Source of the DNA: Candidatus Magasanikbacteria bacterium RIFCSPHIGHO2_01_FULL_33_34
Lineage (GTDB): Bacteria; Patescibacteriota; Patescibacteriia; Magasanikbacterales; UBA922
NCBI GenBank assembly: GCA_001782825.1
Contig: MFPS01000003.1
Coordinates: 44,353 to 108,352, forward strand
Reading direction: 5' to 3'
Length of the DNA stretch: 64,000 bases
The position numbers and the translations under genes were made by a program. Numbering within the stretch: the first letter of the stretch is position 1; every line of letters starts with the position of its first letter. Under the pieces are notes generated by a model. The model was not told where the DNA came from. It did no database searches and saw only the letters and a program-made list of their open reading frames with translations. Of this stretch, positions 3,741 through 53,459 are shown piece after piece.

Positions 3741-4754
3741 ATGGTTAAATTAACAGTGCAATTATTAGTTTGGAATGGAGAAAAATATCTTCCTCATCTT
3801 TTTGAGTCTTTGAGAAAGCAAACAAGTAAAGATTGGCAAATATTTATTTTGGATAATGGTTCTGCTGACAATTCTGTTTCGGTAATAAAAAAAGAATTAG
3901 CTAATTTTTCTATACCTAATTTTTTTGAAGAGGGAGAGTCAAATATTGGTTTTTCGCCTGGACATAATTATATTTATGAACAAACTGATACAGAGTATGT
4001 GTTGATGTTAAATCAAGATTTGTATTTGGAACCAAATTGTATTGAGCGATTAATTTCATTTATGGATAAAAATAGTGAGGTGGCTAGCGTGTCTCCTCGA
4101 CTTATGAAATGGAATATTAATTCACTTGATCACTTTTTTTCTGAGTATGTTGATTCATTGGGTTTAAAAGTGTTTAAAAATAGACGTGCGGTTGATTGGT
4201 ATAATGGTCAGAAGTATGAAAATTTTTTAAATACTAATAAGGATAAAAAAGAAATAGAAGTTTTTGGCGTATCTGGTACATTGCCGATGTTTAGGAGAAG
4301 TAATATAAATAGTATCTTATATGATAATAAATATATATTTGATCCAGATTATAGTTCTTACAAAGAAGATGTAGATTTGGCTTATCGTTTACGATCGGCT
4401 GGATTCAAGTCATATGTAGTTTTGGATACTTGCGCATATCATGATAGAACTAGTGATATAGAAATTACTGTAATAGATAATAAGAAAAAACAACCAGAAC
4501 ATGTAAAATATTATAGTTATAGGAATCATTTGATGACAATATATAAGAATGAATATTTACTAAATTTTATCCTTGATTTTTTTTGGATATTGTGGTATGA
4601 AGTAGGTAAATTTATTTGGTTTTTGTTATTTGATAGAAAGGTTTTAAAAGGTTTGGGAGATATATGGAAATTCAGAAAAAATTTGAAAAGTAGACGAAGA
4701 CAGATAATAAAACAAAGAAAAATAGGATGGTATAAAATTAGAACTTGGTTTTGA
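3741..4754 (+). CDS. Glycosyltransferase family 2
   Basis: QLLVWNGEKYL...ILDNGSADNS is GT2-like. It abuts the upstream GT2 with a 1-nt gap. Confidence 0.75.
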   Translation: MVKLTVQLLVWNGEKYLPHLFESLRKQTSKDWQIFILDNGSADNSVSVIKKELANFSIPNFFEEGESNIGFSPGHNYIYEQTDTEYVLMLNQDLYLEPNCIERLISFMDKNSEVASVSPRLMKWNINSLDHFFSEYVDSLGLKVFKNRRAVDWYNGQKYENFLNTNKDKKEIEVFGVSGTLPMFRRSNINSILYDNKYIFDPDYSSYKEDVDLAYRLRSAGFKSYVVLDTCAYHDRTSDIEITVIDNKKKQPEHVKYYSYRNHLMTIYKNEYLLNFILDFFWILWYEVGKFIWFLLFDRKVLKGLGDIWKFRKNLKSRRRQIIKQRKIGWYKIRTWF

Positions 4755-28770: not shown

Positions 28771-29169
28771 ATGAATTATTTGAGAGCTATTAAGACTGGA
28801 GTAATGTTGTGGCTAACAATTTTTGTGGTCATAACTATATTGATGTTTTTACCATTTCTTGTCGATAAAAAAATGCTTCAGTTTGGAATATTCTGGATAC
28901 TTTTGATTCCAATTGTTTTGTTGTTTTGTAAGTGGCATTTTAAGATGGATGCACCCAATCTAAAAAAAGGATTTTTATTGGGAATAATTATGCTTTTGGT
29001 TATTTTGGTATTGGATATGGTTATAACAGTGCCTTTGTTTGTAAAATCTTTTTCTGTATTTTTTGGTGATTGGATGATGTATGTAGGTTATATAGAAGTA
29101 TTGTTATTAGCCGTTTATGCTGGATTTGAGTTTGATAAGACATTTACAAAATACGATAATACCAAATAA
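28771..29169 (+). CDS. Small hypothetical membrane protein
   Basis: It has 3-4 hydrophobic helices. Confidence 0.45.
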   Translation: MNYLRAIKTGVMLWLTIFVVITILMFLPFLVDKKMLQFGIFWILLIPIVLLFCKWHFKMDAPNLKKGFLLGIIMLLVILVLDMVITVPLFVKSFSVFFGDWMMYVGYIEVLLLAVYAGFEFDKTFTKYDNTK

Positions 29170-29179
29170 AAAACAGAAC

Positions 29180-29200
29180 GTCCCGGCACGGTGCCGGGAC
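29180..29200 (-). terminator. Perfect 10-bp GC-rich palindrome (gtcccggcac g gtgccgggac) acting as a terminator for the minus-strand small ORF
   Basis: The sequence shows the palindrome. On the minus strand a T-run follows it. Confidence 0.65.
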
Positions 29201-29224
29201 GGTACATCACTTCAGAAGAAACTT

Positions 29225-29398
29225 CTACAACAGCATCAGGGAGTTTACGACGTCATTACGTCCGGTGGGCCGTGCTGACACAGCCCCATCGAAACCCCAG
29301 TTCATCAAGGGGTTTGTGCCATCATCTTCCTCGATGTGTACATCTACCGCTTGGATGATTTTCTTTCTTTGTGCTTTGTTGTTTGCTTTCTTCTTCAT
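29225..29398 (-). CDS. Small (57 aa) ORF inside a GC-rich islet: MKKKANNKAQRKKIIQAVDVHIEEDDGTNPLMNWGFDGAVSARPTGRNDVVNSLMLL
   Basis: ATG at 29398 preceded by GGGGGAG-aatc, followed by the GC-rich terminator. GC content here is far above the flanks. The ORF is under the 60-aa track cutoff. Confidence 0.5.
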   Translation of the reverse strand: MKKKANNKAQRKKIIQAVDVHIEEDDGTNPLMNWGFDGAVSARPTGRNDVVNSLMLL

Positions 29399-29555
29399 GA
29401 TTCTCCCCCTAGGGTGTTGATTTTGGTATCACTGTATGTGACACCTAGTACAACTTGGCAACATTATACTACAAAAATGACCTTTTGTCAACGTATTATA
29501 AGGCATTATATTTAGTATTGATTAATATAAGTTTGTGTGCTAGTATGTTAATATT

Positions 29556-30632
29556 ATGGACAAAAATAACCTTGAAAAATTTGCTAGACCAGCATTAATG
29601 CTGTTAGTTTTTGTAGTTTTATTTAATAAATTAATACCATTTTTATTAATTATATTGATTGGATATATACTCTTTAGAGTATTTAATGGTTTACCAATTG
29701 TACCGATACAATATCAAAATTATGTACCAATACAATTATCATTTTTAACAAAAAAAATTAATTTTAATAAAAAAAATATGGATATGGAAACACTAAAAGT
29801 AAAAGGATCGGGGAGTCCAAAAAAATTTGCTATGTATATTGTGTTGTTTGTAATTGCAATTGGTCTAGCACTTAATTCTTTTGTAATTGTTGGGGCTGGT
29901 AAAACTGGTGTGCAAGTTCTTTTTGGAGATGTTCGTGATGAGGAATTTGCCTCTGGGTTTCATATAAAAAATCCATTTGTGATGGTAAATCAAATGAATA
30001 TCAGGACACAAGAGTACACTATGAGTATTGCGCAGACTGAGGGTAAAAAAATTGGTGATGATTCCATTGCTGCTCTTACAAAAGAAGGTTTACAAGTTGA
30101 ATTGGATATTACAATATTGTTTCACTTGATAGATGATAAAGCATCTGATGTGTATCGTGAGATTGGTACTGGTTATGAAGAAGTGGTGATTAGACCACAA
30201 ATTAGAAGTACTATTCGTGAGATTATAGCACAGTATGAAGCCAAAGATATTTATTCTGAAAAAAGACAAGAAGCATCACAAAAGATTTTGGAATCAATCA
30301 AATCAACAATTGAACCAAGAGGAATATTTGTAGAAGAAGTGCTTTTGAGAAATATTAATTTGCCAGCAAATTTAGCAAATAGTATTCAAGAAAAATTGCA
30401 AGCTGAGCAAGAAGCACAAAGATATGAGTTTGTGTTGCAAAAAGAAGAAAAAGAAGCAGAAAGAAAGAGAGTTGAAGCCGCTGGACAGAGAGATTCACAA
30501 CAAATTATAAATGAAAGTTTAACTCCAAGATATTTGCAGTATTTGTATATCCAGAGTTTAAAGGATAGAGAAGGCACAATTTATGTTCCAACTGATCCAA
30601 GTAATGGCACTCCTTTGTTTAGGAGTATATAG
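29556..30632 (+). CDS. SPFH/band-7 (stomatin/HflK-like) domain protein
   Basis: FASGFHIKNPF...VELDITILFHL...IRSTIREIIAQYEAKDIY is an SPFH signature. An alternative start lies at 29778, immediately before the canonical TM helix. Confidence 0.7.
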   Translation: MDKNNLEKFARPALMLLVFVVLFNKLIPFLLIILIGYILFRVFNGLPIVPIQYQNYVPIQLSFLTKKINFNKKNMDMETLKVKGSGSPKKFAMYIVLFVIAIGLALNSFVIVGAGKTGVQVLFGDVRDEEFASGFHIKNPFVMVNQMNIRTQEYTMSIAQTEGKKIGDDSIAALTKEGLQVELDITILFHLIDDKASDVYREIGTGYEEVVIRPQIRSTIREIIAQYEAKDIYSEKRQEASQKILESIKSTIEPRGIFVEEVLLRNINLPANLANSIQEKLQAEQEAQRYEFVLQKEEKEAERKRVEAAGQRDSQQIINESLTPRYLQYLYIQSLKDREGTIYVPTDPSNGTPLFRSI

Positions 30633-31109: not shown

Positions 31110-31138
31110 TTGACATGATTTTAATGATTGGTTATAGT
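31110..31138 (+). promoter_or_regulatory. Consensus-like promoter (TTGACA-17-TATAGT)
   Basis: It is upstream of the 31174 ORF, and the leader carries an AAGGGGAG SD. Confidence 0.55.
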
Positions 31139-31173
31139 TTCATCCAGTAGTCAAATATAACAAGGGGAGAATC

Positions 31174-31398
31174 ATGAACAATTTTTTTAGAGTATTTTCT
31201 TATAAAAATAGGGACGGATCTTGCAATTTGCGTATTTTTCGTAGGGGGACACGTATTGTTGTATATGAAGGTAAGGTATTTATCAAATCAGAAAATGATA
31301 TTATAAATTTTATCAGTACATTGTCTGAGATTAACCAAGAGGAGAAAGAAATGCTTGTACAAGAACTAAGGAAAATACAAAAAAGAATTACTCGTTGA
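31174..31398 (+). CDS. Small hypothetical protein (74 aa)
   Basis: It has its own promoter, the SD aaggggagaatcATG, and a perfect terminator downstream. Confidence 0.55.
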   Translation: MNNFFRVFSYKNRDGSCNLRIFRRGTRIVVYEGKVFIKSENDIINFISTLSEINQEEKEMLVQELRKIQKRITR

Positions 31399-52731: not shown

Positions 52732-52896
52732 ATGGGTCCTCAAAAAGTTATAAAAGATGATAGATTTTGTGGTGAGTGTGAACTTACAGTTTTGCATTTA
52801 GTCGTTGTATTTGAAGTTGTACGAATAGAAATATGTTGTGTGTGTTATGGTGTAACTAGATATACTGTAGAAAAAACTAAAATTCCACCAAATTAA
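52732..52896 (+). CDS. Small Cys-rich ORF (54 aa): MGPQKVIKDDRFCGECELTVLHLVVVFEVVRIEICCVCYGVTRYTVEKTKIPPN
   Basis: A strong SD (GGAGGGG) sits 4 nt upstream. It carries a CxxC plus CCxC pair. It is under the track cutoff. Confidence 0.4.
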   Translation: MGPQKVIKDDRFCGECELTVLHLVVVFEVVRIEICCVCYGVTRYTVEKTKIPPN

Positions 52897-53057
52897 TACA
52901 AAATTGTATATACAAAAAAGTAAAAAAATTTTACAGAAAGTAAAAAATTGAAAAAAATAGATTCGTTCAAAAAACAAATTCGTGCTTCACCATAAAGGCT
53001 CTTGCAAAAGAGCCTTCGTCTATTTATAAGTTGTAAATTGTTTATAAAAAAAAGTTG

Positions 53058-53090
53058 CCGGCCCCGACGAATCGGGACCGGACTTGGCCG
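53058..53090 (-). terminator. GC-rich nested hairpin (ccggcc-cccga-cgaa-tcggg-...ggccgg) plus a T-run on the minus strand
   Basis: The palindromes are visible. On the minus strand they are followed by cttttttttat. Confidence 0.6.
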
Positions 53091-53102
53091 GAGGGCTGGG
53101 AG

Positions 53103-53270
53103 CTAGTCCCAGCGGACGGGTCGGTGGAAGAACTGTTCCTCCGTATCCGAGAACACCGGGAGAGGAGGCACCTCGATGCCGAACTCCTTCTCGGTCTTCT
53201 CCGCCAGTATGGCGAAGAAATTCTCCAGCATCTTCAGCGTCAAACCACCATACTTCTTGTTCGTTTCCAT
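53103..53270 (-). CDS. Small (55 aa) ORF inside a GC-rich islet: METNKKYGGLTLKMLENFFAILAEKTEKEFGIEVPPLPVFSDTEEQFFHRPVRWD
   Basis: The ATG at 53270 is preceded by GGGGGATAC. Third-position GC is about 78%. A GC-rich terminator follows. Confidence 0.55.
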   Translation of the reverse strand: METNKKYGGLTLKMLENFFAILAEKTEKEFGIEVPPLPVFSDTEEQFFHRPVRWD

Positions 53271-53459
53271 AGTATCCCCCGTGACTTGTCCCACTCTGAC
53301 GTTATTGTCAGTTGATGGGAACAATACAGTATAGCATATTTTAACACTTTTGTCAAGACCTATTTGGAGTAATTTAGCTAAAATAAGCAAAAAAATATAA
53401 ATTTATTTGGTGATTTTTATTGCCTAAATTATAGTTATAATGTAGTATTAATGTAATAT

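What the first reader, a model, noticed from the sequence alone, without database searches (positions are those of the whole stretch)
29170..29420. GC-rich islet with a small SD-led ORF and multiple hairpins in an AT-rich genome
A ~250-bp segment rises sharply in GC relative to its surroundings. On the minus strand it has a strong SD (GGGGGAG), an ATG at 29398, a 57-codon ORF and a perfect 10-bp GC palindrome terminator (29180-29200). The same segment holds several further local hairpins (agaag-aaa-cttct, gacgt-catt-acgtc, aaacccc...ggggttt). Composition points to a foreign origin. Alternatively, the ORF may be incidental and the segment could be a GC-rich structured RNA, since GC-rich islets in AT-rich genomes are often ncRNAs.
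Basis: seen in the sequence. Interest (0 to 1): 0.65.

Follow-up and report, generated by a model that had tools for sequence, protein, structure and literature searches.

The report
Self-contained GC-rich small-protein gene
The GC-rich patch is most likely a tiny stand-alone gene with its own strong promoter, ribosome-binding site and terminator, encoding a 57-residue protein known from only one other relative and wedged between two housekeeping genes of an AT-rich groundwater bacterium (Candidatus Magasanikbacteria); it is not a known RNA, and its function is unknown.

Summary
Window 29170-29420 is the second-strongest GC peak in 64 kb. On the minus strand it holds SD GGGGGAG, ATG 29398, a 57-codon ORF and a 10-bp GC terminator.

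The islet is therefore a complete transcription unit.

Coding evidence:
- The GC excess sits at codon position 3 (0.59, against a host mean of 0.227).
- An SD+ATG ORF this long arises in about 1% of shuffles.
- A relative (L083) has a 61-aa homologue at the same site and strand (pairwise E 3e-5). Conservation runs pos1 > pos2 > pos3.

No Rfam, tRNA or tmRNA hit. No other protein relative was credible among billions of sequences.

The unit is absent from five syntenic relatives, where the flanking genes abut, and is replaced by other GC-rich units in L003. A second unit with the same architecture but no convincing sequence similarity lies at 53058-53356. Only 5 of 65 host genes have an SD, so these units are atypical in four respects.

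Verdict: a lineage-restricted, moron-like microgene of unknown function. It is a new member of a known kind. The open puzzle is why GC3 stays high after synonymous-site saturation. Interest is modest.

The parts
29463..29491 (-). Sigma-70-type promoter TTGACA-17 nt-TATAAT.
   Evidence: 12 of 12 consensus matches. The pattern occurs only twice in 64 kb, against 0.10 expected. It is a consensus match only, with no expression data.
29425..29445 (-). 5'-UTR stem-loop GGUGUCAC-AUACA-GUGAUACC (8 bp), close to the predicted transcript 5' end.
   Evidence: UTR fold -18.3 kcal/mol, z -2.73. The other three GC-rich units also contain a 5'-UTR hairpin, read by eye from the sequences. A stabilising role is inferred.
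29403..29409 (-). Shine-Dalgarno GGGGGAG, 4 nt before the ATG.
   Evidence: Sequence. Only 5 of 65 host genes in the window have any SD-like motif.
29225..29398 (-). 57-codon ORF including stop: MKKKANNKAQRKKIIQAVDVHIEEDDGTNPLMNWGFDGAVSARPTGRNDVVNSLMLL
   Evidence: ORF listed. GC by codon position is 0.52/0.33/0.59. Chance of an SD+ATG ORF this long is 0.0098. Homologue L083B: pairwise E 3e-5, with nucleotide identity by codon position 0.54/0.45/0.34.
29168..29201 (-). Intrinsic terminator: 10-bp stem with 3-nt loop at 29201..29179, followed by TTCTGTTTTTT, which runs into the stop codon of the convergent mem132 gene.
   Evidence: On the + strand the hairpin has no T-run, so it is a poor terminator for mem132.
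28771..29169 (+). Left flank: 132-aa multi-pass membrane protein (mem132), convergent with the unit.
   Evidence: weak DUF5367 match. It directly abuts SPFH in relatives L004, L010, L013, L019 and L085, with gaps of 1-65 nt.
29556..30632 (+). Right flank: SPFH/Band-7 protein, divergent from the unit.
   Evidence: Pfam PF01145, E 2.9e-30.
29485..29512 (+). Candidate SPFH promoter TTGTCA-16-TATATT. Its -35 hexamer overlaps, back to back, the -35 of the unit's promoter.
   Evidence: 10 of 12 matches. A consensus match only.
53058..53356 (-). Second unit of the same architecture, with no convincing sequence similarity to the first. Promoter TTGACA-17-TATACT at 53356..53328, 5'-UTR hairpin, SD GGGGGA, 55-aa ORF at 53270..53103, terminator at 53081..53058. 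It lies between the MetRS and TatD genes.
   Evidence: GC peak 0.64. GC by codon position 0.54/0.30/0.80. Orphan. Chance of the ORF is 0.0078.

Best explanation
The islet is a complete, autonomous transcription unit on the minus strand. It encodes a lineage-restricted 57-residue protein.

Shown by sequence analysis:
- A consensus sigma-70 promoter at 29491..29463, about 45-50 nt of 5' UTR with a stem-loop, a strong SD, an ATG, a 57-codon ORF and a strong intrinsic terminator.
- The GC excess is mainly a codon-third-position effect in the frame of this ORF.
- A 61-residue homologue sits at the same site and on the same strand in a relative.
- The unit is an addition between two genes that are otherwise adjacent.

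Inferred:
- The genome's own genes almost all lack an SD, so the combination of consensus promoter, 5' hairpin, GC-rich body and strong SD should make this an abundant, stable and efficiently translated mRNA.
- The product has a very basic N-terminus (MKKKANNKAQRKK; the L083 homologue has an AT-hook-like KKRGRPRR) and a conserved acidic/aromatic core, E-D-x3-N-P-L-x2-[WY]-G-x-D-x2-V-S-x-R-P. The structure model gave only low confidence and no secondary structure.
- The most likely mode of action is therefore non-enzymatic. It would be a small, largely disordered binder or modulator that contacts a nucleic acid through its basic end and a partner through the conserved motif. This is the kind of accessory function carried by moron-like cassettes.
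- The site between mem132 and SPFH is a variable slot that holds different small promoter-led genes in different relatives.
For: Architecture.

Coding:
- GC by codon position is 0.52/0.33/0.59, against a host GC3 of 0.227 +/- 0.042 (maximum 0.35, n=65).
- P(SD+ATG ORF >= 57 codons) = 0.0098, and 0.0078 for the second, independent unit.
- The homologue L083B is in the orthologous gap on the same strand. BLASTP from Met1 over 46 residues gives 35% identity and pairwise E 3e-5.
- 13 of 19 conserved residues use different codons, and nucleotide identity by codon position is 0.54/0.45/0.34.

Not a known RNA.

Addition to a conserved gene pair: mem132 and SPFH are 1-65 nt apart in L004, L010, L013, L019 and L085. 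L003 and L083 carry other GC-rich promoter-led units there.

Atypical for the host: SD in 5 of 65 genes and codon-usage score -0.39, against +0.12 to +0.33 in host genes.

Real in several assemblies.

The neighbourhood is housekeeping, not prophage.
Against: - There is no expression or translation data.
- The family has only two members, so dN/dS and covariation cannot be computed.
- In the search of all fetched loci the tblastn hit to L083 had E 0.66, and phmmer did not report it at E<=1. Its weight comes from the targeted pairwise test plus the shared position and strand.
- L083B shows no codon-position GC periodicity (0.50/0.52/0.53).
- AlphaFold2 gives no confident fold (pLDDT 56), so the functional inference is weak.
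- The whole transcript folds better than shuffles (z -5.35; ORF plus its immediate flanks, 29210-29400, z -3.39), so an RNA-level role is not excluded.
Confidence: 0.62

Rival explanations
1. The transcript is primarily a structured small RNA, or a dual-function RNA. Selection for RNA structure or stability keeps it GC-rich, and the ORF is incidental or secondary.
For: - It is a GC-rich islet in an intergenic gap of a 32% GC genome.
- The full transcript folds with z -5.35, L083B with z -5.66, and the ORF plus its immediate flanks (29210-29400) with z -3.39.
- GC3 stays at 0.53-0.59 in both homologues although synonymous sites are saturated. This would fit selection at the nucleotide level.
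- The unit has a strong promoter and terminator, as sRNA genes do.
Against: - No Rfam family matches, even at E<=10.
- Much of the z-score comes from the terminator and the 5' hairpin. The ORF-only z-scores (-2.3, -1.1, -2.4, -3.8) overlap the host-gene controls, -0.5 to -3.0.
- SD+ATG+ORF occurs in both independent units, P about 0.01 each.
- Conservation between the homologues follows codon positions rather than helices.
- Two sequences give no covariation test.
Confidence: 0.15
2. The unit matters mainly as a transcriptional element. Its strong minus-strand transcription runs head-on into read-through from mem132, so it uncouples or tunes SPFH expression by transcriptional interference or antisense. 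The peptide itself would be unimportant.
For: - mem132 and SPFH are adjacent, and probably co-transcribed, in five relatives.
- The terminator hairpin has no T-run on the + strand, so mem132 transcripts could read into the antisense of the unit.
- The -35 hexamers of the unit's promoter and of a candidate SPFH promoter overlap back to back.
- Several relatives carry some divergent small unit at this site, with unrelated sequences.
Against: - It does not explain the SD, the amino-acid-level conservation with L083B or the GC3 bias.
- The second unit (53058-53356) has the same build in a different gene context.
- There are no expression data.
Confidence: 0.1
3. It is a recently imported fragment of foreign, higher-GC DNA that happens to be expressed. 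It would be a neutral or decaying acquisition with no selected function.
For: - GC3, codon usage and SD use are atypical for the host.
- It is absent from most syntenic relatives.
- The protein is an orphan.
Against: - No donor was found in protein, viral, phage or plasmid collections.
- A diverged homologue lies at the same site and strand in L083, with conserved residues despite saturated synonymous sites.
- All expression signals are intact and near-consensus.
- The amino-acid composition (GC2 0.33) is host-like.
Confidence: 0.1
4. It is an assembly chimera or contaminating sequence.
For: The composition changes sharply at both edges of the islet.
Against: - The same junctions occur on 6 contigs from separate JGI and ENA assemblies, including a 121-kb contig and a 736-bp contig.
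- The promoter and terminator fit exactly between the flanking genes.
- A homologous unit lies at the same site in another population, on two contigs.
Confidence: 0.01

Closest known systems
Phage 'morons' (independent transcription units added to phage genomes; PMC3594210)
   Same: It has its own promoter and its own terminator. [quoted passage not shown] It is an obvious addition relative to related genomes. It carries a small accessory ORF.
   Different: It is not in a phage or prophage. The neighbours are housekeeping genes (RpoD, DnaG, NnrD, SPFH, MnmA, AlaRS). There is no phage, viral or plasmid match. A diverged homologue at the same chromosomal site suggests long residence in the lineage.
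Lineage-restricted bacterial small ORFs / microproteins (orphan sORFs)
   Same: It encodes fewer than 60 residues, belongs to no family, has very narrow phyletic spread, evolves fast and is predicted largely disordered.
   Different: From my own knowledge, bacterial orphan genes are usually AT-richer than their genome. This one is much GC-richer, and it carries near-perfect expression signals in a genome whose own genes mostly lack an SD.
GC-rich intergenic structured ncRNAs of AT-rich genomes (the 'GC-rich IGR' heuristic; from my own knowledge, not checked in a paper here)
   Same: It is a GC-rich, hairpin-rich islet in an intergenic gap, with a promoter and a terminator.
   Different: It matches no covariance model. 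It shows coding periodicity and an SD-led ORF. Its structure signal is not above the host-gene controls once the terminator and UTR are removed.
Type I toxin-antitoxin small-ORF loci
   Same: It is a small stand-alone ORF with a strong promoter in an intergenic slot. Some relatives (L022, L088) carry small ORFs with a hydrophobic stretch followed by a charged tail at the same site.
   Different: The 57-aa product is hydrophilic and has no transmembrane segment. No overlapping antisense RNA gene is evident. There is no PADLOC or Pfam match.

Membership tests
Phage moron | Own promoter and own terminator flanking the ORF | tested here: met
   12/12 promoter at 29491..29463 and a 10-bp GC terminator at 29201..29179. 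These are consensus matches only.
Phage moron | [quoted passage not shown] | tested here: met
   Peak 0.553 against a mean of 0.324. GC3 0.59 against 0.227.
Phage moron | Absent at the same position in related genomes | tested here: met
   mem132 and SPFH abut (1-65 nt) in L004, L010, L013, L019 and L085. L083 has a homologue and L003 has other inserts.
Phage moron | Located in a phage or prophage genome | tested here: not met
   The context is housekeeping. There are no PHROG, IMG/VR or GenBank phage matches.
Known structured RNA family (Rfam) | Match to a covariance model at or near the gathering score | tested here: not met
0 hits at gathering over the whole window. ARAGORN found nothing.
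Known structured RNA family (Rfam) | Helices supported by compensatory changes | not testable with these tools
   Only two homologous sequences exist.
Type I toxin-antitoxin | Small hydrophobic (membrane) toxin peptide | tested here: not met
   The sequence is basic/acidic and hydrophilic. The AF2 model shows no helix.
Type I toxin-antitoxin | Overlapping antisense RNA gene | tested here: inconclusive
   The only + strand candidates are a weak 10/12 promoter inside the mem132 3' end and possible read-through past the hairpin. There are no expression data.
Ankyrin repeat / ELWxxDGT repeat proteins | Significant match to the repeat profile, kept in the homologue | tested here: not met
   The hits to P0003, P0004 and 5hs0 are sums of weak matches over 4-7 repeats. 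The best single stretch scores 8.9 bits. There is no Pfam Ank hit at E<=1. The hit disappears when the two-sequence profile is used.
RiPP precursor peptide | Adjacent modifying enzyme or transporter genes | tested here: not met
   The neighbours are NnrD, a membrane protein, SPFH, a zinc-finger protein and MnmA.

The most novel reading that the evidence does not exclude
This Magasanikbacteria clade may carry a class of persistently GC-rich, SD-led, consensus-promoter microgenes. There are at least four units in two genomes, plus the L003 inserts. On this reading their high GC3 is actively maintained by selection on the mRNA, for stability or nuclease resistance, or by a dual RNA/protein function, in a 32-35% GC genome whose own genes largely do without an SD. 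The units would be long-term residents whose synonymous sites are under selection, not recent imports. The mem132-SPFH gap would be a dedicated slot for them.
Probability: 0.3. Interest if true: 0.55.

Novelty: new member of a known kind. Interest (0 to 1): 0.33.

Why it matters
On its own this is one more orphan microgene. It deserves a footnote for two reasons.

First, it is a clean, well-delimited example in an uncultivated Candidate Phyla Radiation bacterium. It shows that GC-rich islets in AT-rich genomes can be small protein genes rather than ncRNAs. Codon-position GC and a positional homologue are enough to tell the two apart.

Second, it combines near-consensus promoter, SD and terminator signals with GC-ending codons, in a genome where only 5 of 65 genes have an SD, and its GC content persists across a diverged homologue pair. 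That raises a testable question about selection on synonymous sites, or about a private gene pool, in these reduced genomes.

Tried and rejected
- Known RNA: Rfam at gathering score on the whole window and at E<=10 on the islet, and ARAGORN, found nothing.
- Protein homology:
  - The word-seeded search of 5.8 billion proteins found only the query itself.
  - The exhaustive HMMER search of 1.84 billion representatives found the query plus two repeat proteins. Their scores are sums over 7 weak repeats, so I rejected them.
  - The two-sequence profile search found only the two members.
- Pfam, NCBIfam, PHROGs and PADLOC gave nothing.
- PDB by sequence: an ankyrin hit (E 1e-3 summed over 4 repeats, best stretch 8.9 bits) is not reproduced with the profile, so I rejected it.
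- AlphaFold2 on the single sequence gave pLDDT 56 and no secondary structure. I did not run a fold search because the model is too poor.
- Donor search: IMG/VR viral contigs and GenBank phages and PLSDB plasmids, by DNA and by tblastn, gave no match.
- Homology between islet 1 and islet 2: the DNA alignment shows only the shared promoter consensus. The same TTGACAAAA...TGnTATAAT form heads other genes in relatives, so promoter similarity is not evidence of common descent.
- Peptide of islet 2 against L083 unit A: pairwise E 0.014 is too weak to claim.
- Transposon-like ends: a 16-nt, 81% inverted repeat (29151-29166 / 29422-29437) brackets the islet. Matches of this kind are common in AT-rich DNA, so I did not take it as a TIR.
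- Internal duplication or an origin from another gene in the window: none found.

Full report
**Source organism.** The window is 32.3% GC. The exact 57-aa product occurs on JGI contigs from Rifle groundwater sample 3300002502 and on an ENA groundwater contig. A neighbouring small ORF in the same window is annotated in NCBI as Candidatus Magasanikbacteria bacterium RIFCSPHIGHO2_01_F.... The organism therefore belongs to the Candidate Phyla Radiation (Patescibacteria).

**The observation.** It is correct.
- GC rises to 0.455-0.47 in 200-nt windows over 29100-29399, against 0.19-0.33 on either side.
- The 150-nt peak is 0.553, about 4 sd above the window mean and second only to a peak at about 53100.
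- On the minus strand the sequence reads GGGGGAG-AATC-ATG, then 57 codons and TAG. About 23 nt further on is a 10-bp stem (8 G-C pairs, 3-nt loop) followed by TTCTGTTTTTT.

The pattern TTGACA-N17-TATAMT occurs only twice in the 64 kb, against 0.10 expected. The second copy heads the other GC-rich islet. The finding is thus a complete unit: promoter, roughly 45-50-nt UTR with an 8-bp stem-loop, SD, ORF and terminator.

**Coding or non-coding.** Four independent lines point to coding.
1. The GC excess is periodic in the ORF's frame, at 0.52/0.33/0.59 for codon positions 1/2/3. GC2 equals that of host genes. GC3 is far outside the host range: 65 genes have mean 0.227, sd 0.042 and maximum 0.35.
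2. In 5000 dinucleotide shuffles of the transcribed stretch, an SD+ATG-led ORF of at least 57 codons appears in 0.98%. The equivalent figure for the second unit is 0.78%.
3. A metagenome contig from a relative (L083; T4CP 88% and SPFH 67% identical) carries a 61-codon ORF in the same mem132-SPFH gap and on the same strand, again with a TTGACA promoter, an SD and a terminator. The two products align from Met1 over 46 residues (35% identity, pairwise E 3e-5). They share a basic N-terminus and a core E-D-x3-N-P-L-x2-[WY]-G-x-D-x2-V-S-x-R-P.
4. In the codon alignment, nucleotide identity is 0.54, 0.45 and 0.34 at positions 1, 2 and 3. Thirteen of 19 conserved residues use different codons. This is the pattern expected when the amino-acid sequence is what is conserved.

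A caveat applies to line 3. In the untargeted search of all fetched loci the hit had E 0.66, and phmmer did not list it. Its weight rests on the targeted comparison together with the shared position, strand and architecture.

**Evidence on the ncRNA alternative.**
- No Rfam family reaches gathering score anywhere in the window.
- ARAGORN finds no tRNA or tmRNA.
- The whole transcript folds much better than shuffles (z -5.35). Much of that comes from the terminator and the 5' hairpin.
- The ORF alone gives z -2.3. The other GC-rich ORFs give -1.1, -2.4, -3.8 and -2.6. Host coding controls give -0.5 to -3.0.

An added RNA-level role cannot be excluded, but nothing requires one.

**Is there a family?** Effectively no.
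- The word-seeded search of 5.8 billion proteins returns only the query.
- The exhaustive HMMER search of 1.84 billion representatives adds two large repeat proteins. Their E-values are sums over seven weak repeat matches centred on 'DDGTNPL'.
- A PDB ankyrin hit is of the same kind, with a best stretch of 8.9 bits. It disappears when the two-member profile is used.
- The profile search finds only the two members.
- Pfam, NCBIfam, PHROGs, PADLOC, IMG/VR, GenBank phages and PLSDB plasmids are all negative.
- AlphaFold2 gives pLDDT 56 and no secondary structure.

**Genomic context.** The region is housekeeping: L9, CTP synthase, DnaG, RpoD, SOD, a PfkB kinase, a DsbA-like protein, a T4CP-like ATPase, NnrD and a 132-aa membrane protein (mem132). 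Then comes the islet, followed by SPFH, a CxxC zinc-finger protein, MnmA and AlaRS.

The mem132-SPFH gap differs between syntenic relatives.
- In L004, L010, L013, L019/L095 and L085, mem132 and SPFH are 1-65 nt apart.
- Here the gap is 386 nt.
- In L003 it is 1047 nt. It holds a different GC-rich (0.45-0.55) insert with two convergent promoter- and SD-led ORFs of 166 and 70 aa.
- In L083 it is 984 nt. It holds two tandem minus-strand units, separated by a 161-nt palindromic MITE-like repeat that has a second copy 2 kb away.
- L022 and L088 have still other small divergent ORFs in larger gaps.

The slot is therefore variable, and the unit is an addition to a conserved gene pair.

**Is it foreign?** The unit differs from host genes in four ways.
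- GC content.
- Synonymous codon choice: score -0.39, against +0.12 to +0.33 for host genes.
- A strong SD, when only 5 of 65 host genes have any SD-like motif.
- A 12/12 promoter.

The second unit at 53058-53356, between MetRS and TatD, repeats all four, with GC3 0.80.

This fits the textbook description of a 'moron': its own promoter and terminator, a GC content unlike its neighbours, and an obvious addition relative to related genomes (PMC3594210). It is not, however, in a phage. Two facts also complicate the idea of a recent import.
- No donor was found.
- The two homologues have saturated synonymous sites yet both remain about 50% GC (GC3 0.59 and 0.53) in 32-35% GC genomes, at the same site.

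One possibility is that the family diversifies in an unsampled, higher-GC gene pool and enters this slot repeatedly. The other, which I slightly favour because of the shared site and orientation, is that it has resided in the clade for a long time and its GC-ending codons are maintained by selection on the mRNA. The present data cannot decide between these.

**Mechanism.**
- Shown: the anatomy of the unit and its accessory status.
- Inferred: high expression, from the consensus promoter, a 5' hairpin, a GC-rich body and a strong SD in an SD-poor genome.
- Inferred: a small, probably disordered protein with a basic N-terminus (AT-hook-like KKRGRPRR in L083B) and a conserved acidic/aromatic motif.
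- Most likely role: a non-enzymatic binder or modulator.
- Secondary possibility: the unit lies antisense to any read-through from mem132, because the hairpin lacks a T-run on the + strand. Its -35 hexamer also overlaps, back to back, the -35 of a candidate SPFH promoter. It could therefore also insulate SPFH from mem132 transcription.

**Verdict.** It is a lineage-restricted small-protein gene in a moron-like autonomous cassette: a new member of a known kind, with unknown function. The persistence of GC-ending codons, and the existence of a small class of such units in an SD-poor CPR genome, is the only part that goes beyond the ordinary.

Noticed in passing
window 53045-53360 (minus strand): A second and stronger GC-rich islet (peak GC 0.64) lies between the MetRS and TatD genes. 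It has the same build: promoter TTGACA-17-TATACT with a TG extension, a 5'-UTR hairpin, SD GGGGGA, a 55-aa orphan ORF (GC3 0.80) and a 10-bp GC terminator. AF2 predicts one confident helix (residues 12-30). There is no Rfam hit.
   Followed up: partly
whole window, 65 long ORFs: Only 5 of 65 genes have an SD-like motif within 20 nt upstream of the start (genes starting at 3741, 17325, 31174, 34610 and 49794). The four of these that were scanned (17325, 31174, 34610, 49794) have no Pfam family; 3741 was not scanned. The genome appears largely SD-independent, while its accessory or orphan genes use an SD.
   Followed up: partly
window 31164-31181 versus 29411-29394: The hypothetical 74-aa gene at 31174 shares a 17-of-18-nt ribosome-binding region with the islet ORF (GGGGAGAATCATGAA). 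It also has a TTGACA-17-TATAGT promoter at 31110-31138, but its GC content is host-like (0.29).
   Followed up: no
L083 1934-2094 and 4129-4289: A 161-nt MITE-like element is present in two copies that are 95% identical. It has about 17-nt terminal inverted repeats (GGGTCTGTCGTCGAATG ... CATTCGGCGACAGACCC) and is 80% self-complementary overall. One copy separates the two GC-rich units in the mem132-SPFH gap. It is not present in the window.
   Followed up: partly
L003 2000-2960: One of the closest relatives (T4CP 85% identical) has a different GC-rich insert of about 900 bp at the same site. It holds two convergent ORFs, each with a TTGACA promoter and an SD (166 aa on + and 70 aa on -). Neither has a Pfam, PHROG or PADLOC match, and the 166-aa ORF has no significant PDB sequence match.
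   Followed up: partly
L022 1857-2490 and L088 2100-2292: In these more distant relatives the same gap holds minus-strand, promoter-led small ORFs of 42-55 aa. Each has a hydrophobic stretch, possibly transmembrane, followed by a charged tail, which resembles a type I toxin.
   Followed up: no
window 29151-29166 and 29422-29437: A 16-nt inverted repeat (81% complementary) brackets the GC-rich segment almost exactly. It may be chance in AT-rich DNA, so it was not treated as a transposon end.
   Followed up: no
window 52732-52896 (+): An SD-led (GGAGGGG) 54-aa ORF with paired Cys motifs (CGEC ... CCVC) lies directly after the MetRS stop codon. Its GC content is host-like. It may be a small zinc-ribbon protein.
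   Followed up: no
window 29485-29491: The -35 hexamers of the islet promoter (minus strand, TTGACA) and of a candidate SPFH promoter (plus strand, TTGTCA-16-TATATT) overlap back to back.
   Followed up: no
loci L003-L005, L009, L011 and others (record titles): Many genome records titled 'uncultured Gammaproteobacteria bacterium' (TPA assemblies) share SPFH at 58-67% identity, and several also share the mem132/T4CP synteny with Magasanikbacteria. Their organism labels look wrong.
   Followed up: no
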